64,000 nucleotides of DNA, taken from contig JAGIQG010000014.1 in NCBI GenBank assembly GCA_024679065.1, forward strand, positions 75,144,001-75,208,000. The letters run 5' to 3'. Made by a program: the position numbers and the translations under genes. Positions 19,615-55,789 of this stretch are shown here, in pieces. Position 1 is the first letter of the stretch. Each line of letters opens with the position of its first letter. Origin of the DNA: Sphyrna mokarran (Eukaryota). The notes beneath the pieces were generated by a model. The model did no database searches and was not told the DNA's origin. It saw only the letters and a program-made list of their open reading frames with translations.

Positions 19615-22043
19615 ATGACCTCAATGAGCTGCGGTGTACCGTTCATTTTTCTGTTCTGTCTGTCGGACCTGGTTTCAGGACAAATTCGCTACTCGATTGC
19701 CGAGGAGCAGGAGCACGGGGCCTTTGTTGGGAACATCGCTGAGAATTTGAGATTAAATATTTGGGAATTATCGGCTCGTAAATTTCGCCTGGTCTCCGAA
19801 GAAAGGAAGCAATACATTGAGGTAAATCTGGAAAATGGGGTTTTATTTGTTAATGAACGGATCAACAGAGAACAGCGTTGTAGAGAAAGCTCTGCCTGTT
19901 CCCTTTCGTTGCAAGTTGTCTTCAATAAACCTTTGGAAATACATCCTGTTGAAGTGGAAATATTAGACGTAAATGATAATTCACCCAAATTTCTGAACAG
20001 CGAATTCTTCTTGCAGATCAGTGAATCAATTTCGGCAGGTGCGCGCTTCCCTGTCGACAGCGCGTACGACCCGGACATCGGCACAAATGCAATCAGAATT
20101 ACCAGATGAGTCCAAATGAACATTTTGGCATCAGAGTTCAGACACGAAATGATGGAAGCAAAAGTGCTGAATTGTTGTTAGAGAAAGCCTTGGACCGTGA
20201 ACAACAGTCAACCTTCAATCTTGTGCTGACGGCTGTTGGTGGCGGCGAACCCCCGAGGTCTGGCACAAGCCGGTTTTCAATCACTGTCCTGGACGCGAAA
20301 GATAACGCACCTATATTTGATCACGAAATACACAAAACCAGTATCGCAGAAAATTCCCGCAAAGGGACGTTGGTGACAACAATCCACGCTGCTGATACAG
20401 ATGAAGGTACCAATGCTGAACTGACCTATTCTTTCACCAGCCATGTTTCCCAGGATATTCGCGAATTGTTCAATTTAGACCCCAAAATTGGAGAAACTAC
20501 AGTCCAAGATATACTGGATTTTGAAAAAGCAAGTGTTTACGAACTTGATGTAGAGGCCGTGGATAACGCTCCGCCTGGTGTGGCTGGACGTGCAAAAGTG
20601 ATGGTTGGACTGATAGACACGAATTATAACATCCCCGAGATAGACGTCACTTTGGTGTCCAGCCCAGTGCAGGAAGATGCTCCTCCGGGGACTGTGATAG
20701 TTTTAGTCAGCGTTATGGATTCAGATTCTGGCAAATATGGGCACGTGCAATGTCATATTCCAACGCAACTTCCGTTCAAACTTCAAAAAATCTTGAAGAA
20801 CAGCTACAAGTTAATTCCCAATGGTATTTTGGATCGTGAAGTATCCCCGACATACAACATCTATATTTCAGCCTGAGATGGGGTATTTCCCCCTAATTCA
20901 ACAAATTTAACTCTTTTAGTTTCCGTTTCAGATATAAATGACAATGTGCCAAAGTTCACACAATCCTTATATAACATATATCAGATGGAGAACAACACTC
21001 CAGGTGCTTCTATATTCGCTGTTACTGCACCGGATTCAGATTTAGGCCGGAACAGTGAGATTCACTATTCAATTCTGGAGAGTCAGAATGAAGGGAGAGG
21101 CGGGACTGCTTACGTTTCCATCAATTCCAAACATGGGGACATTTACGCCCTGCGTTCCTTTAACTATGAACAGTTGAAACACTTCCAGATCAAAGTTCAA
21201 GCCCAGGATATGGGATCTTCTCCGCTGAGTAGTACTGCCATTGTCAATGTTATAATCCTGGATCAAAATGACAATACACCGGTTATTGTCTCACCTTTAA
21301 CCTGGAACAATTCAGCATCAGTGGAGATTGGGCAGCAGTCAGTATTGCACCCAGAATATTTGGTGACCAATATAATCGCGACTGATGCGGATTCCGGTCA
21401 GAATTCCAGGCTTTCCTATCAAGTGATGGAAACCAATGTTTCCAATCTGTTCACTGTGGGACTTCTCTCTGGGGAAATCAGAGCAACACAACGTTTAAGG
21501 GAGGAAAGTATCAGCACAGCAAAATTGGTCGTCATCGTGAAGGATAATGGACAGCCAAGCCTTTCCACCACGGTTACCGTCTCATTTACCGTCTTGACCA
21601 ATGTAACAGAAAATTCTTCTGAACAAGTTGGTGAACCTGGTGCATCGAAGTATTTTTCGCACCTTAATGGTTATTTAATCGTTATATTGGGATCAACACC
21701 GGTTTTATTTCTTGTAATAATCATTTTTCTTGTCATGCTGAAGATTAATCAAGGCAGAAATATCGCTGAAGATCACAACTGTGCGGTTTGTTGTTACACA
21801 AATCGAAATTTGAACGATGCCTTTAACCGGAGGTCTGCACCAAACGAACCATTCAACTATGTCGAGTCTGCTCAGACTGAAGGTTGTCACTATACCGTGT
21901 GTTTATCGCCAGAATCAGCGAAAAGTGATTTTCTGTTTTTAAAGCCCTTTAATCCTACCTTGCCTTTCGACGACTTGGGTGTCCGGGACACCAACACAAA
22001 AATATTGCTTGGTAACAATTTCGATGCAGGGACTGGTAAATAA
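19615..22043 (+). pseudogene. Clustered protocadherin pseudogene (gene 2)
   Basis: Full-length paralogue split into three ORFs by a 1-bp deletion at ~20097 and TGG>TGA at 20874-20876. Ca-binding motifs are decayed (INRE, TAVGGG, DAKDN, DTNYN, FNYEQ). Confidence 0.9.
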
Positions 22044-24614
22044 TTCACACTTGGGTAGACGTGTGTGCCATATTTTGAAATCTTGGGTAAGTCATTCTTT
22101 GCTATATACCACTAGGTCCTCAAATTTTAGTAGATTAAGACTGAAGTAGTCAAATTGCTTACTGTTGCTGTTATATTCTTGCCTTTCACTGATGCTACAT
22201 ATATCTGCCCATATCCTCACAATCCTAAGCAGTGCATGCTTAATTATACTATATTGAAGACTGACATAATTGTTGGATTGTGTAAATTATAGAAGTGCAA
22301 CCCCTTGCTGTTAATGTTATATCGCATATCTTGAGGTGGTCAATGAGACAAGAATATTTTTTTGGATTTTGGTTACATTGAACAGTAATGAATCGTAAAA
22401 CCAAATACGTGTCCCTGAAATAAATTCTCAGATGTTATCATTGTGTGGAGCCGGCATATTCGCTGCTTTCGTGAAATGTTACTTGTTTGTCCCTGGAAAA
22501 TTATGCAACAAGAGTATGTCAACAGTATATATTTCCTCAGTTTTCTTCCAGATTTTACATGAAAACAATGAATCTTGTTATCTCACATTAACTTCGTTAT
22601 ATAATGTGCACTTACGTAATGTGCAAGTACAGTCCTTTATTACCAAGTTCATGATCAATTTCTTGTTGAACGGAACTGTTGTATTTTCTTCCGTCTTCCT
22701 TTCGATTATAATAGCACTGCGCAAAACAAAAATAATTTCTCCCGATTTCTGTTTGAATACGTTTTCAATTACTTTAAAACCACTTATCGCGTCTTTCCCA
22801 GGAAACGGCTCGTTTCTTATTTTCTCTGCCAGTGCCCATCATAATTATGATCACTTCTTTCAAATCTCTACGCACGCTTTTCTACTCTAAGGAATCAAAT
22901 CCATGATGTCTACTCCGTGTACGTAGTTAGATTTGCTCTTTCCTGGTACCATTCTAGGAAATGTCGTTTGGGCAGCCTTCAAGATATTGACAGTGCCACA
23001 AAACATTTTTGCTCTCAATTGGACGCAGTACTATATATAATGTATATATATAGCTTTCTATACGTCACGTTGTAGTATGTTATTAACTTTAAATGGGAAA
23101 TAACAAAATTATACACAAATGGAATTTAGAATGACTCAGTTTACACTGTACCAGATAATTTTCCTGTACTGAAGAATGGCCTGAGTTCTATAGTTCACTC
23201 CCTAACACAAATAACAATTCCGGAAAATATTTCAAAAGGCAAAACTTGACGCACTTATACAACAGAAATCAGCGACGCTTGTGCTATTGACTACATAAGT
23301 AAACGCAATGGCAGTTGAACTAATCTACGGAAATATAATTGCAAGATGCATTTATACCACACATTCCAACTATGACCTAATGTTATCGCATTAATTGTTT
23401 GAATCACTCTAATCAAGTACACGTCTACCACCCAACTGAAATTGTTGCAGCCAATAAAGGAAATGACACCCTGAATAACAGTAACCCCGGTGCCTCGCCC
23501 CTATACGATCTCTACGATTGCATTTAAACTTTTCACATGAGGATTATTTTAGGATATTTTAGCATTTTTCCTGTTTCCTACTTAGCGTGACTGCCTACAT
23601 TTGGCCATACATTCAGCGCGTATGGTATGCATATTACTTTAGACATCAGGAAACGTGACTCACTTTCTTGTCCCACACCAAATTTTTACCCTTCCTCCAT
23701 TTCTCGGGTTCTGTAAGCTTGCTGCCTGATGACATTATCCGCAAAATTGGGGTCAGATTCCACATATTTTGCTGTTGACAGATCGCATTTTATTTTAATC
23801 ATTCACGACCAGCTATGCACTTTCACCCTGCATGAGCTGACCAAACTTTCAGCTAATCTATCAAAAGATCTAGCAGCCGCTTGGGACAAACTCTATACCA
23901 TTGCAATGGTTTCATTGTTTAATTATTGTTTTATGTGGAAACCAACTTTTTATCCTTCAACACCAGATGTCAGCCAGACCGCCGTTTGATAAATGCTACT
24001 TAGAACTATCTCCTGAACGTCACACACGTGAATGTTTCATTCATTGTTCCAGTGAATCCTTTATACTGCTTTTTTATCAGCTCTAAACTTCAATATTTGA
24101 GTTCTAGGCTGGCTGTCTGCTCAATGATCTTCGAATTTCAATTTGTTCAATACATTTTGCCTACATTTTTTTCCAATTCCAGGTCATCTATCGCATGTTG
24201 GTGAACTGCACTGATTTCTGTTTCCAAAATTACTTAACATTTTCGTTGTCACTCTTATGCCAAATGTTTTATCTCTTCCCTCTTTTCTGCATTTTCTGCC
24301 ACCCCATCATAGACAATGGGTCACTCTGTTCCTGGCCTTCCATTTCGGAAGTCTCCTATTGTCAATACTCTCTACTAGCCCCAACCATTTGTAGTCATGA
24401 ACCCACCATCAAGGCCAAATCATGCAAAATACCTTCATTATATCGTTCTATCTAATATCCTTCAATAACTTCAACAAAATCTATTTTATAGTGAAAATCT
24501 CGCAAGCATTGCAAAGGGCAAATTGGTTCAGCAGCTATTGTTTTTCAGTTAGCTCTTCTACGGTGATCTTTCGAATGTATCATGCTTAAACCGATTGACA
24601 GTGAGTCTGGCGGT

Positions 24615-31198: not shown

Positions 31199-32339
31199 TA
31201 AATGTGAACGAAACATTCATTGTTTTTTTTTATTTTGGGATATGGGCGTAACTGAGAAGACCAACATTCGTTGTCCATCACGAATTATCTTTTGAGTGAG
31301 TTACTGGGAAGCTTCAGGAGACAGTCTGGAGTCAACCAGTAGGGACTAGTTTCCTATGTACGTCGGAACAGTTAAGGACGAAGATTTCTTTCCCTAAAGC
31401 TCATTTCTGAAACAGGTAAGTTTTTATAACAATCCATGATAGCTTTCTTAGTTACCAGGACTGGTGTTTAATTTTATACACTACCTTTGGAATTTAAATT
31501 TTGTCAGCTCATGGGACTATTCATTCCAAGCCTATTACTAGTCCAAAGATCTTAGAACTACGCCAGGACCTTCTCTTAAAGCTGGCTCTATATCTGAAAT
31601 TGACCGATAATGTGATGCTGAAGGGAATAATTCTAACCAGCTAATGGAATAGAAGTACTGTTATTTGATGTAATCATCGTCTGACAATATGCCTGCGTTG
31701 TTTTCTCATAAAAAAATCTTTTAACGATCTTTGTTCAGAACGACAGTCATCGTGGGCAGATTTTGAGCATTAATCATGATTGAAAAGTTTGTTATAGTTT
31801 AAAGGGCACCAATCTGCAAGTGTGGGACAAGGCGAAGAGGTGATCTTTCACTTACCATCACTATGACGACATGTTATGCAAAATGAAATAAGAAGAAAGA
31901 TATCCAGAAAAAAATCAGTGTATACTTAAAATATTCGTTGATATTTATACACATGCTATAACAACTTACTACAGTTTTCATCTGGTGACATAATCATTCC
32001 GAAAACCATGGATGCACTTAGCATATATGCAAAGCCTTTCAAGATCTCAAAGCATCTCGAAGCCCTTTAAAATTATTGAAGGACGTTTAAAGATTAGGCG
32101 CCGTTGTAAAGGCGGAAACCTACCAGTAACTAAATTGAACGGCGATAATATGGCGATTAATATTTGATTACATTTGCGGATTTGAACGCTACCTGAAGTC
32201 TCATCATTCCGATATTTCACGTTCAAGATTAAGGCTGAAACAGAACACGAGATTTCTGTGCATGCTTGTCCATGTAATTGTAATTGTACACTTGTAAATA
32301 TAACGTTCGGTGGCATATAAATTATTTATTATCAGCCTA

Positions 32340-32651: not shown

Positions 32652-35045
32652 ATGGCGAACGTACTGATGATCCGGGCAGTCTTCATTTTCGTGCTGTGTG
32701 TGTCCGACCTGGTTTCGGAACAGCTTCGCTACTCGATTCCCGAGGAACTAGAACGTGGGACCTTTATTGGGAACATCGCTGAAAATATACGACTTAATGT
32801 TTGGGAATTACCGTCTCGCAAATTTCGGCTGATTTCAGATGACCCGAAACAATACATGGAGGTAAATCCAGAAAATGGCTTCTTATTTGTTAGTGAAAGA
32901 ATCGACAGAGAACAAATTTGTAAAAAAAGCTCTCCCTGTTCACTTTCTGTTCAAATCGCGCTCGACAACCCTTTGGAAATGTATCCCGTTTCAGTGGAGA
33001 TACAAGATGTAAATGATAATTCGCCCATCTTTCCGAAGAGGGAATTCCACTTGCAGATCAATGAATTAATTGCGCCAGGGGCGCGCTTCCCTCTCGAGAG
33101 TGCGCAGGATCCGGATGTGGGTACAAACGCAATCAACACTTACCAGGTCAGTCCAAACGAGAACTTCGCTATCAAAGTGCAAACAAGACGGGATGGAAGT
33201 AAAAATGCTGAGCTTTTACTGATGAAGCCTTTGGACCGTGAAAAACAATCGATGTTTACTCTCCAACTGACGGCCATAGACGGTGGGATTCCGCACAGGT
33301 CTGGCACAGCTCAGCTTATCATTAATGTAATGGACGGAAATGATAACGCGCCTATTTTCGATCAGGAAACCTACAGGGCGACTGTCGTGGAAAATGTCGC
33401 CAATGGTACCTTAGTGATAAAGATTAATGCTGCGGATATGGATGAAGGTACAAATGCTGAAGTAACATATTCCTTCACCAATCATGTTTCCCAAAATATC
33501 CGCAAGTTGTTCCAATTGGACCCTATTACTGGGGAGATCAGGGTTCGGGGAGTCGTGGATTTTGAAGAAGCGAATGTTTATGAACTTGACGTACAAGCAG
33601 TGGAGAATGCTCCACCAGGATTGGCAGCCCATGCAAATGTTGTGGTCGATGTCATTGACACTAACGATAATTTTCCTGAGTTGCACGTGACTGTAGTTGC
33701 CAGTGCTGTGCGGGAGGATGCTCCAGTAGGAACTACTATAGCTTTGATCAGTGTAACTGATGCTGATTCTGATGAATATGGAGAAGTTCACTGTCAGATT
33801 CCAGGGAGTATTCCGTTCAAGATTGAAAACCCTTTACGGAATAGCTATAAGTTGGTTACCAATGGTATTCTGGACCATGAACTGATCCCAATATACAACA
33901 TCTCCATTTCTGCCTGGGACGGAGGCTTGCCGCCTCTTTCAACAAGTAAACTCATCTTGGTTTCTATAACTGATATCAATGACAACGCTCCAAAATTTAC
34001 ACAATCCTCATATAACGTGTACCTGATGGAGAATAATAAACCTGGTGCTTCTATATTTGCTGTTAATGCATATGATGCTGATTTGAATCAAAATGGAGAA
34101 ATCTCCTATTCCATTCTCGACAATGCAAAGCAAGATATGTCTTCCTCTGCTTACGTCACGATTAACTCCAAAAATGGGAACATTTACGCACTGCACTCCT
34201 TTGATTATGAACAAGTGAAACACTTCCAATTCAATGTTGAAGCTCATGATGCTGGATTTCCTCCACTAAATGGCACTGCTATTGTTGATGTTATTATCTT
34301 AGACCAAAATGACAATTCGCCGGTTATCCTCTCACCTCTAACATGGAACAGCTCAGCATTAGTGGAGATAATGCCTCAGACAACTTATCCAGGTTACTTA
34401 ATCACCAAGGTGATTGCGACAGATGAGGATACTGGTCAGAATGCGAAGCTTTCCTTCCAGTTGTTGGAGGCCACTGATCCTAACCTGTTCACCATTGGTA
34501 TACTGTCTGGGGAAATCAGAACAACACGAAGTATTAAAGACCAAGAAATCATTACAAAAAATGCGGTCCTCTGTGTGAAGGACAATGGACAACCAAGCCT
34601 CTCCAGTACGGCCACAATCTTCTTTACAATAATGTCCAATGTGACTGAGAACTCTTTTGAACGAATGGATGAACCCAGACGCTTGGAATATTTTTCAGAT
34701 CTAAATAGTTATCTGATCATCATTTTAGGATCCACTTCCTTTTTGTTCCTGGTAACGATTATTGGATTGGTCATCCTGAAGTATAGACAAGACAGAAATA
34801 TTGCTGAAGACTATACCTCTACAGGTCGTTGCTATAGTCGGAGGAATTCCAATGATGGTTTTAATCGGGGGCAAGCTGCAAGTGAACCTTTAAATTATAG
34901 CGGGACAGTTCAAACTGAAGGTTATCGTTACACTGTGTGTTTATCACCTGAATCGTCGAAGAGTGATTTTCTCTTTTTAAAGCCCTGTCATCCTACGTTG
35001 CCTTTCAATGATGTGAATGCTCATGACATCAATGCAAGAAATTAA
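32652..35045 (+). CDS. Clustered protocadherin, single large exon (gene 3; 797 aa)
   Basis: GCAATGGCG start, signal peptide, QLRYSIPEE, six EC repeats, TM, tail YTVCLSPESSKSDFLFLKP. Confidence 0.95.
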   Translation: MANVLMIRAVFIFVLCVSDLVSEQLRYSIPEELERGTFIGNIAENIRLNVWELPSRKFRLISDDPKQYMEVNPENGFLFVSERIDREQICKKSSPCSLSVQIALDNPLEMYPVSVEIQDVNDNSPIFPKREFHLQINELIAPGARFPLESAQDPDVGTNAINTYQVSPNENFAIKVQTRRDGSKNAELLLMKPLDREKQSMFTLQLTAIDGGIPHRSGTAQLIINVMDGNDNAPIFDQETYRATVVENVANGTLVIKINAADMDEGTNAEVTYSFTNHVSQNIRKLFQLDPITGEIRVRGVVDFEEANVYELDVQAVENAPPGLAAHANVVVDVIDTNDNFPELHVTVVASAVREDAPVGTTIALISVTDADSDEYGEVHCQIPGSIPFKIENPLRNSYKLVTNGILDHELIPIYNISISAWDGGLPPLSTSKLILVSITDINDNAPKFTQSSYNVYLMENNKPGASIFAVNAYDADLNQNGEISYSILDNAKQDMSSSAYVTINSKNGNIYALHSFDYEQVKHFQFNVEAHDAGFPPLNGTAIVDVIILDQNDNSPVILSPLTWNSSALVEIMPQTTYPGYLITKVIATDEDTGQNAKLSFQLLEATDPNLFTIGILSGEIRTTRSIKDQEIITKNAVLCVKDNGQPSLSSTATIFFTIMSNVTENSFERMDEPRRLEYFSDLNSYLIIILGSTSFLFLVTIIGLVILKYRQDRNIAEDYTSTGRCYSRRNSNDGFNRGQAASEPLNYSGTVQTEGYRYTVCLSPESSKSDFLFLKPCHPTLPFNDVNAHDINARN

Positions 35046-35819: not shown

Positions 35820-36030
35820 AGTCCCTGAATTACAAGGTTGTAGTTTCAATTCAAAATCCAGAAACTTGAGTGCAAAATATCGGCTGAAACTCCATTACAA
35901 TGCACAGGGAGAGCTGTACTATCGATGCCAGGTTAGGGATGATACGTTAACCCCAATTCTTGTTATTATTCTCGTGTGGACGAAAAGGTTTCTATGCAGT
36001 AATTAACGAACGGGGCAGTGATCTCTATAA
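35820..36030 (+). mobile_element. Deu-domain SINE remnant
   Basis: AAGGTTGTAGTTTCAA...CCAGAAACTTGAGTGCAAAAT...GGATGATACGTTAACC...GTGGACGAAAAG resembles the Deu-SINE head and core. Confidence 0.5.
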
Positions 36031-42949: not shown

Positions 42950-43320
42950 ATGCAAATATTTCCCTCCCTTAAATAAGAAGACCAAAAAATTACTCAGTGT
43001 CTAGATGTAGTCTAAGCTATGTTCCTGCACAATTGTAGCATAAACTTCCCTGCTTTCCTTCCCCATCCGTCTTGCAATAAGAAGCAACGTTCCTTTTGAC
43101 TTCCTAATTATTTGCTGTACCTGAACGCTAACTTTTTTTCCATGATTCATGTATCAGAGAGCACAAGTGCCTCGCTACCTCAGCATTCCGGTCGCTCCCC
43201 AACCTCCGTCTTTCCAGTGAGAACAAACAAAGTTTCTCCAACCTTTCCTCGTCGCTAATGCCTTCCATGCCATGCACCATCCTGGTAAATCTTTTTTGTA
43301 CTCTGTGGATGTGGACAACC
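42950..43320 (-). mobile_element. CR1 LINE fragments
   Basis: HRVQKRFTRMVHGMEGISDEERLEKLCLFSLERRRL. Confidence 0.75.
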
Positions 43321-45897
43321 AATGCGGATAACCAAATATTTTTCCACATGATGCACCATCTGTCAAATTGTTCTCTGCTTACATCCTCTCTCTTATCGTT
43401 TCAAAACTGTTCAAAACGGACTGTATCCTGCCGCGAGATAAGGGACTCAATGCAGGATTCCCGATTCTGCAAATAAAGGATACTGTGCGTCTCCTGATTA
43501 TTGAATCCCATACAAAAGAGACAAAATATCACTCAACTCCTGCTGCTTCTCTTCATCCACCTTTGCAATATGTCACCCCCACTAAGTTGCGGTGCCCAGA
43601 ATTAAACACAAAACCAAGTTCAGATCTAACCAGTATTTTGTAGAAAATTAGCAATCGTCCTTGCTTTTATACTCCCCGTCCTAATAATAAAGTCAATGGA
43701 CCATTACAAATGTATTTCTCAACTGGCCGTTCCATCTTCAACGACTTTTACACATGTACTACCTGCTGTCTAAGTTCCTGCATTTTTTTTAAATGAAACA
43801 ATTATTTCATTCTCCAAATCTTATCCTGCTTACCAAACCATAACTCTGCAGAAAGGAAAACCGGGCTAACCTAATGGATGGGTCATTTGAGCTACACTTT
43901 CCGATTCCCCTATTCTGTGACTTGCGATATCCACGCTGAACCAATAAGTTCAAACATGACAGCGCACTGACTCTTCCAGAGTGGCGCATGGCGTCATATT
44001 ATTTAGTATTATAAAGTACTATGTAATTCAATACAGCTGAGCAAGTTTGCTGCATTGAAATTATAAACAGTAATAACATAACTGATTAGCAACCCTTATT
44101 CTGTATCTGAATATTTCGCTTCCAACAGCTCTTATTCTAGCTTGGAAGTTCAATTTCTTATAGTGCAACTGTTTGAAAAGAAAAAAAAAATCAACTTGAA
44201 AAGATAAAACTGTCCTAAATTATAAAATGTGGTCAAGACGCAGTTTATTCCTGTTGAGAATAATTGGCTCTGTATAGTCCGGAGATAAACTGACTGACAA
44301 TAGTTTTACATATTTTTTAAGTAAGGTACAACATCAATCACCAATCGAGAAGAATAAGATGTGAAGCGCACGAATCTGAAATTAAGTCATCAATAGAACG
44401 TACAATTCTGTCTGCATGATGCAATTATGCAATGGGCAATGATTGATAGTCTGCATGCATTTGTAAGTAATGGGAGTGTCGTTCTATATTAGAAATGTTC
44501 TGACATTCATAGAAAAATAGTTTGGCATTACACTTCAAGTTAATATTATTATTCACAAATACTATAAAGAGAACTACAAAAAAATCAATGTATGCTTTCT
44601 TTGTTGCTGTTTTCATGATGCGCGATGATGCGCGATGACTAAATTGTGCAGTGCTTGATCTAGATGTTTCTTTGTTAAGTAAAAACGGTCAAATGCCACC
44701 TTCTTATTAAGGGATAATTCTGTCTTACCGAGCGAAGTATCAGCCCAAATACAATAAAAGACAACATGGAATTGCTCGTTATTCTAATATGAGTCTGATA
44801 GTTGCAGCAGTAAAACAATGTTTCATTTGAATTTTGAGGATAATGAAAATGGCTAAGTTGAATAACCCAGTGTTTTTTTGAACATATTTTGTTAGAATTG
44901 TAAAATCTTACTCTTCTACGTGTTGTTATTGAATCCAAGATATTCCATTTCAAATTTTCATTCAAAACGATTGTGCACCACTTTTATTTATACCGATAAG
45001 GCAGAGTCTGAAGGACATTTAACGACAAACACAGAACATGGTGGAAAATGTTCAGCATTTGTGGAGGTAGAACCGAAGGGAATTTTCATGCTGGTGACAT
45101 TTCATTGGGGAAAAAAAAGCTCACATTTTAATTGTTAACAGAGTGTCATGAGTTGAAAAGTAATTGAAAAATCTACCGAATGCATCATTTCGGTGGATAG
45201 TTTATTATTTTTTTCATCCTTGTGGATTTAAAGTAAGTACAAGTGGACACGTATTTCGTTCCAACTAGAACGGACGTTTATAAAGAGTACCAGCTATCCA
45301 AACGGACTCGCTAAAGATAAGCAATGTGGAAGTTTACGTCAGCAAGCAAACACGCGATTGTCTCTCTCAAGGTACAATATTGTGCAAAGCGGCAAAGGTT
45401 CTCACGTGATGCTTGTTTTTGAATATTTTTACCATTTTATGAATGACTTGAAAGCACCGGGAAAGTGTTACACGTTTATAAAGCCTACCCAGAATGTAAA
45501 ATTCAAACGGTTGTGCAAAGAAGTATTTTCGCGCGATTAAAAAATGTAGAAAAAAGAGTATCATGCATAACATGTTTATTCTAAAAAAAGCATGAGAATA
45601 CAGTGTAAACAATAATTATTTTTTAACATCACCATTTCGCAATGCAAATTATTGATTCTAAACACTGTTCAATTTATTCATGTCTTACACAGATCAGCAA
45701 GAATGCGGCTCACACGAAGTTTGGGAATGAATCATTGCCGATGGCTGCATCACAGATTTATCGAAGGAACCACCCGGTTTCACTTACACGTCACAAGTCG
45801 GCTTTAAAAAATACAATTTTAAATGACCTAATATTATTATATGAGCTCAAGTATTTTAATTGCACACTTCTAAATCCAAATACATGGAAGCGGTGTA

Positions 45898-45987
45898 GCT
45901 TTAAGGGCAGTTGTTGCAGTTATTGGTTGGGACACTCTGTGTCGCTGTCTACCAATAAGGAGCTGAAACGCTGGTCGCGATCTACCC
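45898..45987 (+). promoter_or_regulatory. Pcdh promoter cassette, gene 4
   Basis: GCTTTAAG 45898, TTATTGGT 45920, CGCT 45943, ACCAATAA 45951, GATC 45979. Confidence 0.85.
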
Positions 45988-46181
45988 CCGCCTCTTACAG
46001 TAATGTTGAACAGCTTGGAAGGGTGAGAGACAGACTGTTCCTGCGTTCATGCTGAGCAGACATGTTCAGAAGAAAAGACGCAGAAGGAATTTGTCTCTCT
46101 TGTTTAAGTGTTAACAATCAGAAGTAAGGTCGAATTTTCCTTTTTGATAACTGTTTATTATTAGGAATTCCAGCAAGAGCA

Positions 46182-48587
46182 ATGGCGAATATACTCAGCA
46201 TCTGGGCGTCTTTCATTCTTCTGCTGTGTATACCGGGGCAGGTTTCAGGACAAATTCGCTACTCGATTCCTGAGGAGCTGGAGTATGGGGCCTTTGTTGG
46301 GAATATCGCTGATGGTTTAAGCGTAAACGCTAGGGAAATAGCGGTCCGCAATTTTCGACTGGTCTCCGACAGCAGGAAGCAATACATGGAGGTAAATCTG
46401 GAAAATGGAAATGTATTTATTAATGAAAGAATCGACAGGGAACAGCTCTGTCGGCAAAGCCCTGTGTGTTCCCTTTCATTTCAAATACTGCTTGAAAATC
46501 CTTCAGAAATGCACCGCGTTGCAGTGGAAATACTAGATATAAATGATAATTCACCTAGTTTTTTAAAGGACGAATATGCTTTGTGGATCAATGAGTTAAT
46601 AATGCCAGGGAAGCGTTTGCCTCTCGAGAGCGCGCACGATCCTGACGTCGGCACAAATGCAATCAGCAGTTACCAGATTAGCCCAAATGAATACTTCGAC
46701 CTCAGAGTGCAGACAAGAAATGATGGAACTAAAAGTGCCGAGCTGCTGTTACAGAAAACCTTGGATCGTGAACAACAGTCAACCTTTCATCTTGTACTGA
46801 TAGCTACGGACGGTGGTATCCCCCATAGATCTGGCACTACTCGGGTTGTTGTTAATATTGGGGATGCGAATGATAACGCACCTGCATTTGACAGTGAAAC
46901 ATACAGTACCCACATTTTAGAAAACACCCGCAAAGGTACGTTAGTGATTAAACTCAATGCTGTTGATTTAGATGAAGGTACAAATGCTGAGTTAACATAT
47001 TCATTCACCAGCCATGTTTCGGAAAAGGCTCGGGAGTTATTCACGCTGGACCCAATAAATGGAGAGATAAAAGTTGAAGGAATATTAGATTTTGAAGAAT
47101 CACCTATGTACGAACTTGATGTAGAAGCAGTGGATAAAAGTGAATATCCAATGGCAGGACATGCCAAAGTTATGGTAGAACTAATTGATGTGAATGACAA
47201 CGCGCCTGAGATTGAAGTGACGTCGATATCTAGTACAGTCCCAGAAGACGCGCAGTCTGGGACGGTGGTAGCTACATTCAGCGTAAGGGATGCAGACTCT
47301 CGTGAAAATGGGCAAATCCAATGTGAAGTTGATGTGAATATACCATTTAAGTTCCAGAAATCTTTCGGCAATAACTATAAATTAGTTACAAGTGGTGATT
47401 TGGATCGGGAAACGACCCCGCTATACAACATATCAATTACGGCCCGAGATAGAGGATCTCCGCCTCTTGCTACAAGTAAAATTGTAATGGTGTCAGTTTC
47501 TGATGTAAATGATAATTCTCCAAGGTTTGCACAGTCTTCATATAACGTGTTTGTAATGGAGAACAATACACCGGGTTCTTCTATATTTAGTGTTAGCGCT
47601 GCAGATCCAGATATGGATCAGAATGGTGAAGTGTCCTACTTTATGTATGAAAAACAGATACAATATACATCTGCGTCTTCTCATATTACGATCAACTCGA
47701 AGAGTGGGAGTATTAATGCGCTGCTTTCATTTGATTATGAACTGCTGAAGAATTTCCAGATCATTGTTCAAGCTCAGGATGCCGGATCTCCACCCTTGAG
47801 CAGCACTGCCACTGTGAATATTATTATCTTGGATCAGAATGACAATGCTCCAATTATTGTTTCTCCTTTAACTTGGAACAGTTCCTTGGCCGTGGAGATT
47901 CTGCGCCAATCCATATACCCAGGACATTTGATCACCAAGGTAATCGCATCTGATGCGGATTCTGGGCAGAATATGCGGCTTTCCTTTCAAATTCTGGAGG
48001 CCACTGATCCAAGCCTCTTCAGTCTGGGGCGACTGTCTGGAGATATAAAAGCGGTGCGACATTTTAAGGAACAAGACTACGCCATGCATAAAATGATAAT
48101 TCTGGTGAAAGACAATGGGCAGCCCAGCCTCTCTAGCACAGCTACAATCTTCTTCTCAATCCTACCCAATGTTACTGAAAATCTCTCCAAACGTAGTCAC
48201 CAACCCAGAAGTCCTGAACAATTTTCTGACCTGAATGCTTATTTAATCATCATCTTTGGCTCAACATCCTTCATATTTTTTGCAATAATTATTTTCCTGC
48301 TGGTACTGAAGTGCAAGCAGAACACGATTACAAATTATTATCCCTCCACAAGTTGCTGTTGCTGCAGGCGAAGTAACTCGAATGACTACATAAATCGTAG
48401 AACAGTCCCCCGCGAACTTCTAAATTATTCTGGTGCACGGCAGATGCTTCCTGTTTCTGAAACACCCCAGTACACCGTTTGTTTATCTCCAGAGTCATCC
48501 AGAAGTGATTTTTTGTTCATAAAACCATGCGAAGCAACTCTACCGCTGAATGATTTGAATGTTCATGGTAGTAGCGTAAAAAAGTAA
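46182..48587 (+). CDS. Clustered protocadherin, single large exon (gene 4; 801 aa)
   Basis: Signal peptide, QIRYSIPEE, six EC repeats, TM, CCCCRR, tail YTVCLSPESSRSDFLFIKP. Confidence 0.95.
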   Translation: MANILSIWASFILLLCIPGQVSGQIRYSIPEELEYGAFVGNIADGLSVNAREIAVRNFRLVSDSRKQYMEVNLENGNVFINERIDREQLCRQSPVCSLSFQILLENPSEMHRVAVEILDINDNSPSFLKDEYALWINELIMPGKRLPLESAHDPDVGTNAISSYQISPNEYFDLRVQTRNDGTKSAELLLQKTLDREQQSTFHLVLIATDGGIPHRSGTTRVVVNIGDANDNAPAFDSETYSTHILENTRKGTLVIKLNAVDLDEGTNAELTYSFTSHVSEKARELFTLDPINGEIKVEGILDFEESPMYELDVEAVDKSEYPMAGHAKVMVELIDVNDNAPEIEVTSISSTVPEDAQSGTVVATFSVRDADSRENGQIQCEVDVNIPFKFQKSFGNNYKLVTSGDLDRETTPLYNISITARDRGSPPLATSKIVMVSVSDVNDNSPRFAQSSYNVFVMENNTPGSSIFSVSAADPDMDQNGEVSYFMYEKQIQYTSASSHITINSKSGSINALLSFDYELLKNFQIIVQAQDAGSPPLSSTATVNIIILDQNDNAPIIVSPLTWNSSLAVEILRQSIYPGHLITKVIASDADSGQNMRLSFQILEATDPSLFSLGRLSGDIKAVRHFKEQDYAMHKMIILVKDNGQPSLSSTATIFFSILPNVTENLSKRSHQPRSPEQFSDLNAYLIIIFGSTSFIFFAIIIFLLVLKCKQNTITNYYPSTSCCCCRRSNSNDYINRRTVPRELLNYSGARQMLPVSETPQYTVCLSPESSRSDFLFIKPCEATLPLNDLNVHGSSVKK

Positions 48588-50879
48588 TGTATATTAACCT
48601 TTGGGCTGGAGATTATTGGTTGCAGTTTAGTCTTGTCGTGAGGTAATCGATGACGCAATACAAATACAATTGACTTATGCGCTTGAACACTGTCCTAGAT
48701 ATGTGTATATAATAGTAATATTTGATTATTTATGCTAATTCTCGAACGCCTTCAACAGAGCTTGTCGTGTCAATGTTCACGTAAATAACTAGCTACATAT
48801 TTGTGTAATTCCTGCTTTGCTGAAACACATGAACAGTTGGAAAGAACATTTTCTCCAATATCTATAATCATAGCAGACGACTGTTCGAAATCTTTCTGTT
48901 TAAAATCTCATTAAAGTTTTCATTTCAGGATCCTAATTTGGGAAGAAGTTTGCAATTATCAATGATTAGAGGTCGCTAAATAAGGTCATTTTATTCCTAG
49001 ATCACTTACATTGTTTTGTATGTAAAAAAACGGAAGCTAAAACTTCATTAAACGGAACATGCCTTTTGTTTTGCTACGGCGAATACGACATTTTTGTCAT
49101 CTTGTCAACTCAGTGCTTTAAACGTAGGCGCAACATAGATTTTATGAACATATCAGTTTGTAAATTCAACGAACTATGTTTAAAATCAGAAATAATATAT
49201 TTGTTCGAGACTTCATGGACCTATAAATGTATTTCCAGGGGTGTTGGAAGAAATGCGTGTAAATATGTTTCAAATTCACGACACCTTTGGAAGGGAACTT
49301 ACAGCATCCAAACTTGACAACAGTGGAACTTCCTTTCGCCAGAGCTTCGCTGTTATTTACTCAAATGTAGAGAAAAAAAAGAGAAGATGGTGATTAAACA
49401 GAATTTCAATTACAAAAGTCTGATTAATTAGAACATGTTGCAGCTTGAGTCCAGAATCTATGTCGACAGTGAACTCAGACAATTGAGCTAAATCACGAGT
49501 TACGGAGTCCTATTTCTGATCATAGCTATTAATTATTGTTAGTTCAGATTCAAACTTTGGATCTGGCGTTTTGTTTTTGAAGGACTTTGGAATCATGTTG
49601 CATTCATTAATAAATCCGACCCCCAATAAATCTGATTCAAATAAATCTGACTTACTTGCGACACTAATAGTATTTTGTATATGATCCAGATAATGACAAC
49701 ATTGAAAAAAATCTTCATCTGTGATGCTGAAAGCATGATATCGAGCATTTAAAGTGAGATAAAAGAAAGTGCACGTCCGATGAACGACCACAATTATAGC
49801 AGTTTGACATCAAGAACTTATTTGACAAAGAAGACTGAACAATTGATGCACGTTTCGATAATGAAAGGATGCGCAACATTGTGGAGATTCACACTGCTTT
49901 CAATCAATAATTGTACATGATTAGCATCACATACTTGGCACATATGTTAGCATGAATATTTTTTTAATAGTGCAATTTGAAAAGAAAATGGCATAGAACA
50001 TTCGAAGAAAGTTTTTTCATCAACACAAGTGCAGTTGTCAAGCAATCAATTATTAGCTTGGTGTACGGACGATCCTTTCAAAAATGTGGAATTTAAAATT
50101 ATTTTTCATTGCGTTTAGTCTTATTTATATGACTTTGTAGCAAGTAGGCCCATCTAACAATATGAGCAGGAAAATATAGTCTGCCCTTTTGAAATCTAAT
50201 GTTTTCATGCATAATGTACCACCATTCTTCCCTCAGACCGTCCTCCATGCAATACCGTGGGAGAAGAAAATCATCGAGTAAGATAAGAAATTTCTCGGCT
50301 TTTTCGAGGACAATAAATCTCCAAATCTACCAGATACGTTCAGGAGCTCACAGAAAATATGAGGCACATTTACTTTCGCATTGTTCTATATCTAACTATG
50401 CTGCAGAATCCTACATTCATTGACTTATCCTTGTTGCGTTGACGGATTTTATTCTGAACAGCAGCAGTATGTGTGTTGAAGCTCATGCTATGATGAATTT
50501 TATGCAAAGATTTAAGAAGATAGAATGGCATGATGAGCACGTCTATGACAGCAGTTAAAATATAGATATAGTTTTATCTATCTATATAATGTTAATTTCG
50601 CTGCTCTCTTTTTCAATGATGGAAACGTTAGAGGTAATTGAAGGTAAACATCTCATGTAGTATTTGCGAAAAAATATTTACGAATGAACGATTACGAAGG
50701 TCACAATCCGAATACAAATTATGGAAACTAACATACTGATGGTAAATGAATCCAAAGTTAATTGAGAATGCATAACGTGAGGACATTTGACTGAAAGTAC
50801 ATTGATCTGTCTACTGAACAATAGTACTCTCCAAGTATTGCTCATCAAAAGAGGACAATAGGAAATATCAAGCGCAGGA

Positions 50880-51230
50880 ACAGATACACTGTGAGCACAC
50901 CTGAACAGTACCAACAACTTGCATTGACATAGCGCCTTTCGACATAGTCCTACATCCTGAATAAAGAGTGTTATCAAACTGAATCTCAAACTGGAGTCAC
51001 ATAAGGAGAGATGACTAACATCTTTATTTCTCACGTCCCAAAACGTAGGTCCTCAGAATCGTCATCAAACAGGAGACAAATTCATGCAGCCGGAGAGGTT
51101 TTGAGAGGACATTCCGAAATTTAGCATCATGATCTCACGGCCGCCAAGGGCAGAGAGACTAAACCCGGATTCTTAAGTGACCAGCATTGTAGAAGAGCAG
51201 AGATACCAGACGAAGATAATTAGTCTAAAC
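50880..51230 (-). mobile_element. Old L2-like LINE 3' remnant
   Basis: GGAGAGGTTTTGAGAGGACATTCCGAAATTTAG...CACGGCCGCCAAGGG resembles the reverse of an L2 ORF2 end; very degenerate. Confidence 0.4.
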
Positions 51231-51442
51231 TGTAAGATAACGGAAATGCTACCGTTCAAGTATTTACCGAAGTATGTGCTGCTGTGAAATTTGATTTAAA
51301 AGACTGCTCGCTTTATTCAGACATTATACATCGTGCACATTAAAAAATAACCAATATTATTAATGCTGTACATTTCAATATACGACTTGCGCACTACTAA
51401 ACATATTGGATCTCTGGGTGAAAATATTTTTGAAGCAGTACT

Positions 51443-51535
51443 GCTTTAAGAACTGTTGTTGCAGTTATTGGTTAGGACACATTGTGTCGCTGTCTACCAA
51501 TAAGAAGCTGAGGTGTTGCTCGCGATCTGGACCCT
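51443..51535 (+). promoter_or_regulatory. Pcdh promoter cassette, gene 5
   Basis: GCTTTAAG 51443, TTATTGGT 51465, CGCT 51488, ACCAATAA 51496, GATC 51524. Confidence 0.85.
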
Positions 51536-51758
51536 GCTCCAGCAGGGAAACGCAGAACTGAGGCGGATAGAGAGCGAGACGGGCAGCCTGTTCCTGCGTT
51601 TATGTTATGTGACCCTTTTCGGAAAAGATAACTGATTGATCAGTATTTCTCAGCTCTGAATTAGTGCATTAGAGCAACATTCGCTTATTCTTTTGTTCGG
51701 TTAACAATACCGACTGGCAGTTACTTAGCACCGTTACGACAAAATCCAGCGCAGGACA

Positions 51759-54161
51759 ATGGCGCATACAGCGGAAATCTGGCCGTCTTTCTTCATCCTG
51801 CTTTGCGCGTCGGATCTGGTCTGGGGACAAATTCGCTACGCGATTCCAGAGGAACTGGAACCTGGAGCCTTTGTTGGGAATATCGCTGATGATTTAAAAC
51901 TTGACATTCTGCAGTTATCGGCTCGCAAGATTCAGCTGGTTTCCAATGATCGCAACCAATACATGGAGGTAAATCTCGAAAATGGAGTTTTATTTGTTAA
52001 AGAAAGAATCGACAGAGAACACCTTTGTAGACAACGCTCCACCTGTTCCCTTTCTTTCCAAATTGCGCTCGACAATCCGCTGGAAATGCATCGCGTTGAA
52101 GTGGAGATCTTGGATGTGAATGATAATTCGCCCAGTTTTTCCAAGGATGTTTATTCTTTCCGGATTATTGAATTTACCGCTCCGGGGGCGCGTTATCCTC
52201 TCGAGAGTGCGTACGACTCGGATATTGGTACAAACTCTATTAGTAATTACCAAATCAGTCCAAATGCACACTTTGGCCTCCAAGTGCAGACAAAAAGCGA
52301 TGGGAGCAAAATGGCAGGATTGTCCTTAGAAACACAGTTGGATCGTGAGCAGCAGTCAACATTTCATTTTGTGTTGACGGCCATTGACGGAGGTAATCCG
52401 CACAGATCTGGTACTGCTCAGATTATCATCAGTGTTGTGGACGCGAATGATAATGCGCCTGTATTTGATCATGAAATATATAGGACTAATGTACTTGAAA
52501 ACACCCCTAAAGGTACGTTAGTGATCAAAGTCAATGCTCTTGATTTAGATGAAGGCACCAATGCTGAATTAGCATATTCTTTCACCAGTCACACGTCGCA
52601 ACGGACCCGTGAGTTGTTTAGACTGGACGGAGGAACCGGAGAGATCAGTGTTGAAGGAGTTCTGGACTTTGAGGAAAATAATATTCATGAAATTCATGTT
52701 GAAGCTGTGGATAAAGGAGTAGTCGCAATGGCAGGACACACTAAAGTAATGGTGCGATTAATTGATGTGAATGACAATGCCCCGGAGGTAGAGGTGACCT
52801 CAGTTCCCAGTACTATTCCAGAAGATGCGCATCCTGGGACTCTGATAGCCTCAGTAAGTGTAAAGGATCCAGATATTGGTGAGAATGGGCAAGTCCAATG
52901 TGAAATCGATGTACATATTCCGTTCAAACTGCAGAAGACACTGAGCAACAACTATAAATTGATTTCAAATGATATTTTGGATCGTGAAACGTACCCACAA
53001 TACAACATATCTATTTCATGCTGGGATAACGGGTCTCCTCCGCTCGCAACAACTAAACACATATTGGTGTCTATTTCTGATGTTAATGATAATGCGCCGA
53101 AATTTACGCAGCTCTCATATGATGTGCTTGTGCTAGAGAACAATCAACCCGGTTCTTTCCTATTTGCAGTCACTGCGTTGGATCCAGATTTGGCTGAGAA
53201 CGGAGCGGTTTCCTATTCTTTTATGGAAAGTCAAGCACAAAATGTGTCGACTTCTTCAATTTCAATTAACTCAGCGACTGGGGCCATTTACGCGCTGCTT
53301 TCCTTTGACTATGAACAGCTGAAGAATTTTAAAATCATTGTTCAAGCTCAGGATGCTGGATCTCCTCCACTGAGTAGCACTTCCATCGTGAATGTCATTA
53401 TCCTGGACCAAAATGACAATGCGCCGGTTATTGTTTCACCTTTACCGTGCAACAGTTTAGCACCAATGGAGATTGATCGTCAGTCTATAGATCCAGGAAA
53501 CATTCTCACCAAGATAATCGCAACAGACGCCGATTCTGGCATGAACTCACGGCTTACATTCCGAATGTTGGAGGCTTCTGATACCAGTCTTTTCAGCATT
53601 GGTCCACTTTCTGGAGAAATACGGGCAGTCCGAAGTTTTACAAACGAGGACGCTGCCAGGCAAAGAGTAATCATCGTGGTGAAGGACAATGGGCAACCCA
53701 GCCTGTCCAGCACGGCTACTATTTGCTTTTCGGTCTTGACGAACGTTCTTGAAATGCGCTCCAACCAAGGTCGCCAACCCAGTAATCATGGGAACTTTTC
53801 GGAACTAAATATTTATTTAATCATCACTTTTGGCTCAACATCTTTTATATTTCTTGTAACTATTATACTTTTGGTAGTGCTAAAGTGCAAACAGGGCAGG
53901 AATATTAAGCATTACAATCCCACATGTTGTTGTTGCCGTAGACGGCGTAATTCGAATGATACCTTTAGTCGGAGAACTATTCCAAAAGATCTGTTACGAT
54001 ACAATGCAGCACATCAGACACTTCCCATTTCTGGAACTTATCCGTACTGTGTCCGTTTATCTCCAAAATCATCCAAAAGTGATTTCCTGTTCCTAAAACC
54101 CTACGAAGCAACCCTACCATTGAATGATTCGAATGTTCATAACACTATCTTGACCAAATAA
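51759..54161 (+). CDS. Clustered protocadherin, single large exon (gene 5; 800 aa)
   Basis: Signal peptide, QIRYAIPEE, six EC repeats, TM, CCCCRRRR, tail YCVRLSPKSSKSDFLFLKP. Confidence 0.95.
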   Translation: MAHTAEIWPSFFILLCASDLVWGQIRYAIPEELEPGAFVGNIADDLKLDILQLSARKIQLVSNDRNQYMEVNLENGVLFVKERIDREHLCRQRSTCSLSFQIALDNPLEMHRVEVEILDVNDNSPSFSKDVYSFRIIEFTAPGARYPLESAYDSDIGTNSISNYQISPNAHFGLQVQTKSDGSKMAGLSLETQLDREQQSTFHFVLTAIDGGNPHRSGTAQIIISVVDANDNAPVFDHEIYRTNVLENTPKGTLVIKVNALDLDEGTNAELAYSFTSHTSQRTRELFRLDGGTGEISVEGVLDFEENNIHEIHVEAVDKGVVAMAGHTKVMVRLIDVNDNAPEVEVTSVPSTIPEDAHPGTLIASVSVKDPDIGENGQVQCEIDVHIPFKLQKTLSNNYKLISNDILDRETYPQYNISISCWDNGSPPLATTKHILVSISDVNDNAPKFTQLSYDVLVLENNQPGSFLFAVTALDPDLAENGAVSYSFMESQAQNVSTSSISINSATGAIYALLSFDYEQLKNFKIIVQAQDAGSPPLSSTSIVNVIILDQNDNAPVIVSPLPCNSLAPMEIDRQSIDPGNILTKIIATDADSGMNSRLTFRMLEASDTSLFSIGPLSGEIRAVRSFTNEDAARQRVIIVVKDNGQPSLSSTATICFSVLTNVLEMRSNQGRQPSNHGNFSELNIYLIITFGSTSFIFLVTIILLVVLKCKQGRNIKHYNPTCCCCRRRRNSNDTFSRRTIPKDLLRYNAAHQTLPISGTYPYCVRLSPKSSKSDFLFLKPYEATLPLNDSNVHNTILTK

Positions 54162-55789
54162 GAAATCCAAATTTTAGACTGGGTATCATGTCAAAAATCA
54201 CTCTCGTGAGTCAAAGAATTATTGAGCATTGCAACTAACATTGTCCCAAATGAAAACACGCTAATAGATGTAGGTAGCTATGCTGATGACTCTATCCCTA
54301 ATGAATGCCCGAATCAGAATCTCCTTTGCTGTTTTGCCTACATGCTTGCTGTTTTGTATTTTTACTATTCGTATTACTGAAATGTACCAATCATAGAGCT
54401 AAACATCTTCTTTTCAGCAACCATGTTCCATTTAATTATTCAGTATTTAATTGGAAAGCAGTGAGGAAAATGTTTTTATTCAATAACCAAATGTTTTCGT
54501 ATTCTATTCCCAGATTACATTGTTGTTACGTGAAGTGGATTGACGTGAACGTAGTGAAAGAACTCAAAAAGCATGATACAAAACATAATTGCCAGAATGT
54601 TAGGTGAAGTAAATTTACAAATATTATAAAGAGATCAAGCTGCAACATCGTTTTATGTGCAAAGGGCACATTTACAAAGCAACATCCTGGAGTCATTTTG
54701 CAAAACTCGGTGATAATTATTTCAATGGTGTATGAGTTTCTTTTTACTTTACTTATTAATGTAACAAGTAGGTGTACATCAACACTGCAATTTCCAATAA
54801 CACTCACCGATTCTTGATTAAAAAAAAATAACAGTTATGCCAAGAGTTTAACTGACTTTATATGCAAGTAAAGTAAAATTATTTCCGCAACTTCAAATCG
54901 GAGGAAATACACAGCTAACTAGCAAAGGCTGGCATGCATTAATAACAAAATTTATCGGCAAGCCTAAGGTGCAATTCGACAAACCAAGGCATAAAATTTT
55001 CCACCATTTAGTGTCATATCACACTTCAAAACTCTTGTCAGTTGTTTACCGGCTACCTCATATCCAAACTGGGGCCCTAGTATGAAGATATCTGGGCCCA
55101 GGTCATCCTCCCATAAGTAATGATATCAAAACTGTTCACAATACTCAATATCTTGTCTCACCAAGAACATGTGCAGATGCAGCATATCATCTTTGCTCAA
55201 TGTACTCAAATGCCTTCTTCTCTTTGGACTCCTAGTCCATCAGCGTTTCTACGAAGTTATTTGTTGAAGAGCACGGTCATTCTTTTCTTCTGCATTAAAA
55301 AATCTCCTGTTCCGCACAGTAAAGAATCTACTTACGTCCAATGTGTTTCTTTTTATATACTTATATAAGATTTTACAGTCCAGTTTTATGTTCCTGGTAA
55401 TTTTCTAAAATCCTCAAGCTTGCTATTTTTTCTAGCAACTTCGTATGACTTTTCTTTGGATCTAATAGTACCTTTAATTGTTTTTTTTTCAGCATTCGCT
55501 GGGCTACATTTCTTTTATGCTTTTGTCCAGAAAGGAATGTATTATTGCAGCATGCATTAAATCGTTCCTTAAATGTTAGACACTGCCATCATGATGCCTT
55601 TCGACGAAGTTCCCCAATATGCCGTGGCTAAGTCGCCCCCTCATAATTCTTTAATAAAGTTTAGGACCCCAATTTCGCATGGACTACTTCATTTCTCGTT
55701 TCAAAGAAGAATTCTATCATGTTTTCGTCAGCTTTTTCCTGAAGGCTTCACACAAGAAAATCGTCAATAAAATGTTTCAGATTGCAGGA

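What the first reader, a model, noticed from the sequence alone, without database searches (positions are those of the whole stretch)
22041..54211. Stop-then-donor pattern recurs in the other four genes, always within ~55 nt
Seen: gene 3 has CAG|GTAATA at 35077/35078, 32 nt after the stop, sharing CAGGTAAT with gene 1 before similarity ends. Gene 2 has TGG|GTAAGT at 22086/22087 (43 nt). Gene 4 has GTC|GTGAGG at 48637/48638 (50 nt) and GAG|GTAATC at 48642/48643 (55 nt). Gene 5 has CTC|GTGAGT at 54205/54206 (44 nt). Genes 4 and 5 share TCGTGAG there. Known: stops within ~50-55 nt of the last exon junction escape NMD. Inference: these genes may splice their 3' UTRs to a shared non-coding terminal exon (a 'constant 3' UTR'), or use splicing to constant exons as an NMD route. 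Either would be an architecture between beta-type and alpha/gamma-type.
Basis: partly seen in the sequence, partly recalled or inferred. Interest (0 to 1): 0.7.

Follow-up and report, generated by a model that had tools for sequence, protein, structure and literature searches.

The report
Leftover splice donors in shark protocadherins
Five neighbouring shark nerve-cell adhesion genes each carry a splice-donor-like sequence just after their stop codon, at the spot where related genes splice onto shared exons; these are likely ancestral leftovers that are mostly not used, as already described for mammalian beta-protocadherins.

Summary
The window holds five tandem clustered-protocadherin genes of a shark. 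The four intact ones group with elephant-shark Pcdh-epsilon proteins. All quoted donor motifs and distances are correct. The pattern beats chance: P about 1e-4 to 1e-5 for five genes, and 0.003-0.016 if paralogues are merged.

The spacing has a simpler cause than the NMD rule. In spliced relatives (gamma-C5, delta, alpha, PCDH10) the large exon ends 93-150 nt after a conserved SDF motif. The window's donors sit 111-139 nt after it. A conserved stop at codon 28 therefore falls 27-55 nt before the ancestral exon end.

Gene 2 is a pseudogene whose first stop lies about 2 kb upstream, so NMD spacing means nothing there. Three contigs from two runs guessed to be RNA cross the gene 4 and 5 donors unspliced. 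No constant exon was found in the window. Mammalian beta genes are known to keep such donors and are mostly unspliced.

Verdict: real, likely vestigial or rarely used donors in a beta-like subcluster. A shared non-coding terminal exon is not excluded (about 10%). The motifs persist despite about 54% identity at fourfold sites, and the bamboo-shark gene grouping with gene 3 has a spliced database model.

The parts
6675..6689 (+). Promoter conserved element of gene 1 (GTGTCGCTGTCTACC, contains the CGCT core); identical copies at 19339, 32381, 45939 and 51484, 243-276 nt before each start
   Evidence: CGCT element named in PMC2926608 (passage)
6939..9332 (+). Gene 1: single-ORF protocadherin (797 aa from ATG 6939, 813 aa from 6891): six cadherin repeats, transmembrane segment, short tail, stop 27 codons after the SDF motif
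9357..9365 (+). Donor-like CAG|GTAATT, 27 nt after the stop, 111 nt (37 codons, phase 0) after the start of the SDF motif
19615..22043 (+). Gene 2: pseudogene (frameshift near 20100-20106, in-frame TGA 20874-20876, usual stop replaced by TTG at 22005-22007)
22033..22041 (+). CTG|GTAAAT, the gene 2 site that aligns with gene 3's donor (112 nt after SDF)
22084..22092 (+).
32652..35045 (+). Gene 3: 797-aa epsilon-type protocadherin, 83% identical to a basking-shark protein, groups with C. punctatum P0157
35075..35083 (+). Donor-like CAG|GTAATA, 32 nt after the stop, 116 nt after SDF; homologous to gene 1's site
46182..48587 (+). Gene 4: 801-aa epsilon-type protocadherin
48635..48648 (+). Overlapping donor-like GTC|GTGAGG (50 nt after the stop, 134 after SDF) and GAG|GTAATC (55 and 139); crossed colinearly by contig record 11 of run X2
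51759..54161 (+). Gene 5: 800-aa epsilon-type protocadherin
54203..54211 (+). Donor-like CTC|GTGAGT, 44 nt after the stop, 128 nt after SDF; crossed colinearly by X1 record 8 (53953-54639, no differences) and X2 record 16 (54016-54496)

Best explanation
These are shark epsilon-type clustered protocadherin genes whose post-stop GT motifs lie where spliced relatives end their large exon; they are likely retained ancestral donors that are mostly unused, so the main mRNAs likely read through them and likely end at gene-specific poly(A) sites, as in mammalian Pcdh-beta. Shown: gene identity, motif positions, enrichment over chance, the positional match to the exon end of spliced relatives, and colinear contigs across three donor positions. 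Inferred: an ancestral variable exon that spliced to constant exons gained a stop about 9-18 codons before its donor and became a self-contained gene with a short tail. The donor was left in the new 3' UTR and drifted by indels (111-139 nt after SDF, all three phases). The 27-55 nt gap is therefore inherited geometry, not NMD tuning. Rare splicing to downstream exons may persist, as reported for beta.
For: (1) Position. In 109 of 123 gamma-C5-like proteins measured (14 lacked a motif), the constant region begins 93-141 nt after the SDF-homologous motif, mode 102; most are birds, so they are not independent. Nine delta, alpha, gamma and PCDH10-type proteins give 102-150 nt. Spliced and read-through turtle models part after 36 codons, confirming the junction call. 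The window's donors are at 111, 112, 116, 128 and 134/139 nt. (2) The stop is family-wide. Of 151 proteins of 740-900 aa with the motif (from 188 fetched), 141 end within 31 residues of it and 54 at exactly 27. 0 of 167 motif-bearing proteins of any length continue into a recognisable alpha, gamma or delta constant motif. (3) Family. The four intact genes sit in a 30-row clade (SH-aLRT 100, quick tree) with all 8 named C. milii epsilon proteins included. A constant-exon tree in PMC2764143 lists alpha, gamma, delta, mu and nu but not epsilon (passage). (4) Contigs bridge the donors colinearly: X1 record 8 and X2 record 16 over gene 5, X2 record 11 over gene 4. Record 8 alone accounts for X1's depth in that bin (3.65 vs 3.65), and record 11's depth equals X2's depth in the gene 4 bin (10.8). 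(5) Precedent. [quoted passage not shown] Beta mRNAs were polyadenylated and no beta-constant splice product was detected (PMC3431597, passages). (6) tblastn with six constant regions gave no hit below E 0.33 in the window, and every gene has AATAAA or ATTAAA within 3 kb downstream (weak, the hexamers are common).
Against: (1) Persistence is hard to explain by pure neglect. Fourfold-site identity is only 115 of 214 (genes 1/3) and 117 of 216 (genes 4/5), yet CAGGTAAT and TCGTGAG are shared; 0.54^8 is about 0.007, post hoc. (2) Runs X1 and X2 are only guessed to be RNA. They are contigs with no strand, at depth 4-11, which drop rare forms; 98 joints and 1,340 loose ends were not shown. Record 11 starts about 250 nt upstream of the promoter element, so it is not a plain mature sense mRNA. 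Its fit ends exactly before GTAATT at 48805 with 231 letters unlaid, which could be a later 3' UTR splice. (3) The C. punctatum gene grouping with gene 3 has two accessions with one protein plus an isoform X2 that leaves the exon before the transmembrane segment, so database models do splice this kind of gene. (4) No shark mu or nu spliced protein was obtained, so the nearest comparator is missing. (5) Genes 1-3 have no bridging contig shown.
Confidence: 0.6

Rival explanations
1. One reading: the donors are routinely used and join each gene's 3' UTR to one shared non-coding terminal exon, with the stop kept within about 55 nt of the junction to avoid NMD.
For: Enrichment over chance; motif retention despite diverged synonymous sites; distances of 27-55 nt in the four intact genes; two same-protein accessions and a spliced X2 model for the C. 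punctatum gene grouping with gene 3.
Against: Three contigs in two runs cross the donors unbroken. The spacing is predicted by the ancestral exon end alone. Gene 2's spacing has no NMD meaning. No acceptor or shared exon was identified. Same-protein accessions could equally differ at the 5' end. 39 of 151 related proteins stop 18 residues after the motif, which would put an ancestral-position donor about 54-82 nt after the stop (inference; their DNA was not seen).
Confidence: 0.1
2. The donors are kept because a minority of transcripts splice to downstream multi-exon constant regions (such as mu or nu) and are destroyed by NMD, dampening or tuning expression.
For: Rare intercluster splicing is reported for beta (PMC3601302, passage). 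A stop upstream of further junctions is an NMD substrate (established knowledge). NMD products would be too rare for contigs, so one search does not exclude this. Motif retention.
Against: No direct evidence of any junction. No constant exon was found in the window. [quoted passage not shown]
Confidence: 0.13
3. The sites are selected as U1 snRNP binding sites without splicing, for example to suppress early polyadenylation or to aid exon definition and transcription of a long single exon.
For: Retention plus read-through fit together. Predicted U1 duplex energies are -5.8 to -10.3 kcal/mol (recalled U1 end). U1 effects on polyadenylation are established knowledge, recalled.
Against: Entirely inferential; no 3' ends were mapped; the site sequence differs between gene pairs.
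Confidence: 0.09
4. Chance plus shared ancestry: one or two fortuitous GT motifs copied by gene duplication, noticed after the fact.
For: The genes are paralogues with alignable 3' flanks. With two independent units P is only 0.016. The scores are moderate, with 106 of 2,809 scored GT sites in the window at or above 2.0. The window and motif set were chosen after seeing the data.
Against: 0 of 362 other offsets match the signal, and the position agrees with an exon end defined from outside proteins.
Confidence: 0.08

Closest known systems
Elephant-shark (Callorhinchus milii) protocadherin epsilon subcluster
   Same: Same clade, same VCLSPESxKSDFLFLKP tail, about 800-aa proteins ending shortly after it with no recognisable constant region, tandem genes each with its own CGCT promoter element.
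   Different: A different species (a shark; best hits 75-83% to basking shark and catshark proteins). Stop at codon 28 after SDF rather than 28-41 as in the named C. milii proteins. No listed paper in my searches describes donors after the epsilon stop, but the primary epsilon paper could not be read.
Mammalian/tetrapod Pcdh-beta cluster
   Same: No constant exons of its own, self-contained single-exon genes, a retained consensus 5' splice site near the exon end, and rare intercluster splicing (PMC3601302, PMC7811963, PMC3431597; passages).
   Different: A separate lineage: beta is described as absent from elephant shark (PMC2764143, passage). Whether beta donors lie before or after the stop is not stated in the passages seen.
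Pcdh-gamma C-type, clustered delta, alpha and PCDH10 large first exons
   Same: Homologous SDF/TDL motif, with the exon end 93-150 nt later, matching the donor positions here.
   Different: Their frame stays open to the donor and continues into coding exons; here a stop intervenes and the donor phase is not kept.

Membership tests
Clustered protocadherin variable exon | About 2.4-kb single ORF with signal peptide, six cadherin repeats, transmembrane segment and short cytoplasmic part | tested here: met
   Pfam Cadherin_2 + 5 x Cadherin + Cadherin_C_2 in 4 of 4 intact genes; signal peptide and transmembrane segment judged from the sequence only
Clustered protocadherin variable exon | Tandem same-strand array, each gene with its own CGCT-containing promoter element | tested here: met
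   Identical 15-mer 243-276 nt before 5 of 5 starts
Chondrichthyan Pcdh-epsilon | Groups with named C. milii epsilon proteins to the exclusion of bony-vertebrate alpha, beta and gamma | tested here: met
   30-row clade, SH-aLRT 100, quick tree, 8 of 8 named epsilon rows inside; gene 2 left out
Chondrichthyan Pcdh-epsilon | Distinct from shark mu and nu variable exons | tested here: inconclusive
   No named mu or nu protein was returned, so none is in the tree
Chondrichthyan Pcdh-epsilon | Position in the cluster and absence of its own constant exons | tested here: inconclusive
   No constant exon in the 64 kb, but no genome is held; absence for epsilon is inferred from its omission in PMC2764143's constant-exon list
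Pcdh-beta | Orthology to tetrapod/coelacanth beta genes | tested here: not met
   The one beta-named row (coelacanth P0302, an automatic name) lies outside the window genes' clade; works like beta, is not beta
Pcdh-beta | Unspliced, locally polyadenylated mRNA | tested here: inconclusive
   Colinear contigs across the gene 4 and 5 donors in runs guessed to be RNA; no 3' ends or strand
Pcdh-alpha/gamma type (spliced to coding constant exons) | Open frame up to an in-frame donor | tested here: not met
   A stop precedes the donor in genes 1, 3, 4 and 5; donor phases are 0, 2, 2/1 and 2
NMD-escaping 3' UTR intron | Stop within 50-55 nt of the LAST exon junction, junction actually used | tested here: inconclusive
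   Distance met for genes 1, 3, 4 and 5, not for gene 2; no junction seen among those shown; number of downstream exons unknown

The most novel reading that the evidence does not exclude
Shark epsilon protocadherins converted the variable-to-constant splice into a non-coding one: after a stop arose just before the ancestral donor, selection kept the donor so that many genes with distinct short-tailed proteins share one downstream 3' UTR exon. That would give cluster-wide control of mRNA localisation or stability without a common cytoplasmic domain.
Probability: 0.1. Interest if true: 0.65.

Novelty: new member of a known kind. Interest (0 to 1): 0.3.

Why it matters
If the best reading holds, it is a tidy molecular fossil. 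It supports the idea that protocadherin subclusters without constant exons arise from spliced variable exons (proposed for beta in PMC7811963, passage), here in a separate shark lineage and by a stop gained just ahead of the donor. That is useful to specialists but expected. If the donors proved to be used to reach a shared non-coding exon, it would be an undescribed third architecture for a cluster central to neuronal self-recognition, testable with existing shark brain long-read data.

Tried and rejected
Genome: no whole genome is held, so the rest of the cluster and any downstream constant or terminal exon could not be surveyed.

Sequencing runs: no RNA holder is listed on record; the two runs are only guessed RNA, with shares 0.15 and 0.07. 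In X1, 9 of 9 bins over genes 4-5 had depth and 0 of 7 chosen unique intergenic bins did (one bin bordering a repeat, depth 0.49, left out). This looks RNA-like, but lack of cover is not used as evidence and the runs were found with this stretch. X1 record 5 stops at 48611, before gene 4's donors, with no loose letters: uninformative.

Constant exons: tblastn of six constant regions and of the 60-residue tail of C. punctatum isoform X2 (best E 1.4) against the window found nothing. Gene 3 has AT, not GT, at the site where X2 leaves the exon. Searches meant to reach shark mu/nu proteins returned epsilon or bony-vertebrate gamma-C5 proteins instead.

Other sequence checks: Rfam gave 0 matches. 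blastn among the five 2.5-kb 3' flanks gave three short distal matches (43-54 nt), not followed up, and no shared element near the donors. Acceptor-like AGs exist within 3 kb of every donor but are unremarkable. MaxEntScan was not available; a recalled frequency matrix and U1 duplex energy were used, and the matrix ignores compensation between the exon side and +5. The careful tree did not finish; the quick tree is reported.

Literature: the primary elephant-shark paper and the 2001 mouse-human comparison are not held. Six searches listed no paper on epsilon donors; I read only term-matched passages of seven papers, no supplements. Earlier scan findings: none.

Full report
What the locus is. 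The window holds five same-strand protocadherin units. Genes 1, 3, 4 and 5 are intact ORFs of 797-801 aa with Cadherin_2, five Cadherin and Cadherin_C_2 domains. Each of the five has an identical GTGTCGCTGTCTACC element 243-276 nt before its start. The best protein hits are from sharks, rays and chimaera, including named Callorhinchus milii epsilon proteins. In a quick tree of 44 rows the four intact genes fall in a 30-row clade (SH-aLRT 100) with all 8 named epsilon proteins included; no named mu or nu protein was available and gene 2 was left out. PMC2764143 (passages) names delta, epsilon, mu and nu as the elephant-shark subclusters and lists constant exons for alpha, gamma, delta, mu and nu. 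That epsilon has none is my inference from that list; the primary paper could not be read. Gene 2 is a pseudogene with a frameshift near 20100-20106, a TGA at 20874-20876 and a lost normal stop.

The observation. All six quoted sites and distances are in the sequence. With a recalled donor matrix, the best site after each stop is equalled by 0.5-7.9% of 50,511 non-coding windows, joint P 1.5e-5 to 1e-4. Using a 93-144 nt window anchored on the SDF motif, taken from spliced homologues though after I had seen the data, P is 7.8e-5. It is 0.003 or 0.016 when paralogues are merged into three or two units; 0 of 362 other offsets reach the score and the minus strand is blank. So the pattern is real but rests on few independent events, and the sites are moderate (2.0-5.1 of 8.7 bits). 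Two details are wrong: gene 1/3 similarity continues past the donor, and gene 2's site that aligns with gene 3's donor is 22035/22036. Gene 2's first stop is 1,977 nt before the quoted donor.

Why the donors are there. The tail motif SDFLFLKP has homologues in spliced protocadherins. In 109 of 123 gamma-C5-like proteins the constant region starts 93-141 nt after it (mode 102, mostly birds; 14 not measurable), and spliced versus read-through turtle models part after 36 codons. Nine delta, alpha, gamma and PCDH10-type proteins give 102-150 nt. The window's donors lie at 111, 112, 116, 128 and 134/139 nt. The stop is conserved across the family: 141 of 151 proteins end within 31 residues of the motif, 54 at exactly 27, and 0 of 167 continue into a recognisable constant motif. 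A stop ending 84 nt after the motif and an exon end at 93-150 nt give a gap of 9-66 nt with no appeal to NMD. Donor phases differ, as expected once the frame is released. This is the inferred history: a spliced variable exon gained a stop shortly before its donor.

Are they used? One search found two runs, both only guessed RNA. Laid on 34700-54699, X1 has contigs without a single difference from the window; its record 8 (687 nt, 53953-54639, depth 4) runs 434 nt past gene 5's donor and accounts for all depth in that bin. X2, whose contigs differ from the window by roughly 4-7% (a relative), has record 16 across gene 5's donor and record 11 across both gene 4 donors. A well-used splice would usually fork and break such contigs (inference from how de Bruijn assemblies behave). 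Limits: strand and level are unknown, rare forms are dropped, and 98 joints and 1,340 loose ends were hidden. Record 11 begins upstream of the promoter element, and its fit ends exactly before GTAATT at 48805 with 231 letters unlaid. That may be divergence, or a 3' UTR splice 217 nt after the stop, which would itself lie outside the 55-nt rule. Genes 1-3 are untested.

Results against my reading. The motifs are shared between paralogues whose fourfold sites are only 54% identical, which hints at selection. The C. punctatum gene that groups with gene 3 has two accessions for one protein and an isoform X2 that leaves the exon before the transmembrane segment and ends in an unidentified 60-residue tail. 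I could not see those transcripts.

Comparison. [quoted passage not shown] Mouse beta mRNAs are polyadenylated with no beta-constant product detected (PMC3431597, passages). Beta is proposed to derive from variable exons that lost splicing to constant exons (PMC7811963, passage). The window's genes work like beta but are not beta. The NMD 50-55 nt rule (established knowledge, recalled) protects only if the junction is the last one; splicing to a three-exon constant region would trigger decay.

Verdict. Best reading (0.6): retained ancestral variable-exon donors in shark epsilon genes, mostly read through. Rivals: minor NMD-bound splicing (0.13), shared non-coding terminal exon (0.10), U1 binding without splicing (0.09), chance (0.08). 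Six literature searches listed nothing on this feature in epsilon, but the primary paper was not seen and may mention it. New member of a known kind; interest 0.3.

Noticed in passing
window 48804/48805: The fit of X2 record 11 ends exactly before GTAATT, 217 nt after gene 4's stop, with 231 letters unlaid; a possible further 3' UTR donor in the relative, or just divergence.
   Followed up: partly
window 45695-45939: X2 record 11 starts about 250 nt upstream of gene 4's promoter element with 172 more letters unlaid, suggesting upstream or antisense transcription, or DNA.
   Followed up: no
window 19606-22043: Gene 2 is a pseudogene (frameshift, internal TGA, lost terminal stop) that keeps an intact promoter element at 19339.
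   Followed up: yes
proteins P0153, P0157 (C. punctatum XP_072446362-4): The gene grouping with gene 3 has a database isoform that leaves the exon at FFS|E before the transmembrane segment and would be secreted; gene 3 lacks the GT there.
   Followed up: partly
proteins P0100, P0181, P0126 (C. milii epsilon 2, 5, 18): These run 39-40 codons past the motif, about to the ancestral exon end, as a variable exon read into its intron would; a fused model (P0188) leaves epsilon 2 after 36 codons. Codons not seen.
   Followed up: partly
window 46020-46028 and about 46140-46170: AGG|GTGAGA (5.0 bits) in gene 4's 5' leader with a pyrimidine-rich AG just before the ATG: a possible small 5' UTR intron, untested.
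   Followed up: no
window 14468-15079 and 15167-15778: A 612-bp inverted repeat at 97.7% identity with arms 87 bp apart, between genes 1 and 2; likely a recent mobile-element foldback.
   Followed up: no
window about 36000-43400: Very high contig depth from many divergent records between genes 3 and 4, marking interspersed repeats.
   Followed up: no
window 31413-31421: The strongest donor match in the window (CAG|GTAAGT, 8.7 bits) is intergenic, 1.2 kb upstream of gene 3, and tied to no identified exon.
   Followed up: no
window 6891-6938: Gene 1 has an in-frame upstream ATG adding 16 residues ahead of the start shared with its paralogues.
   Followed up: no
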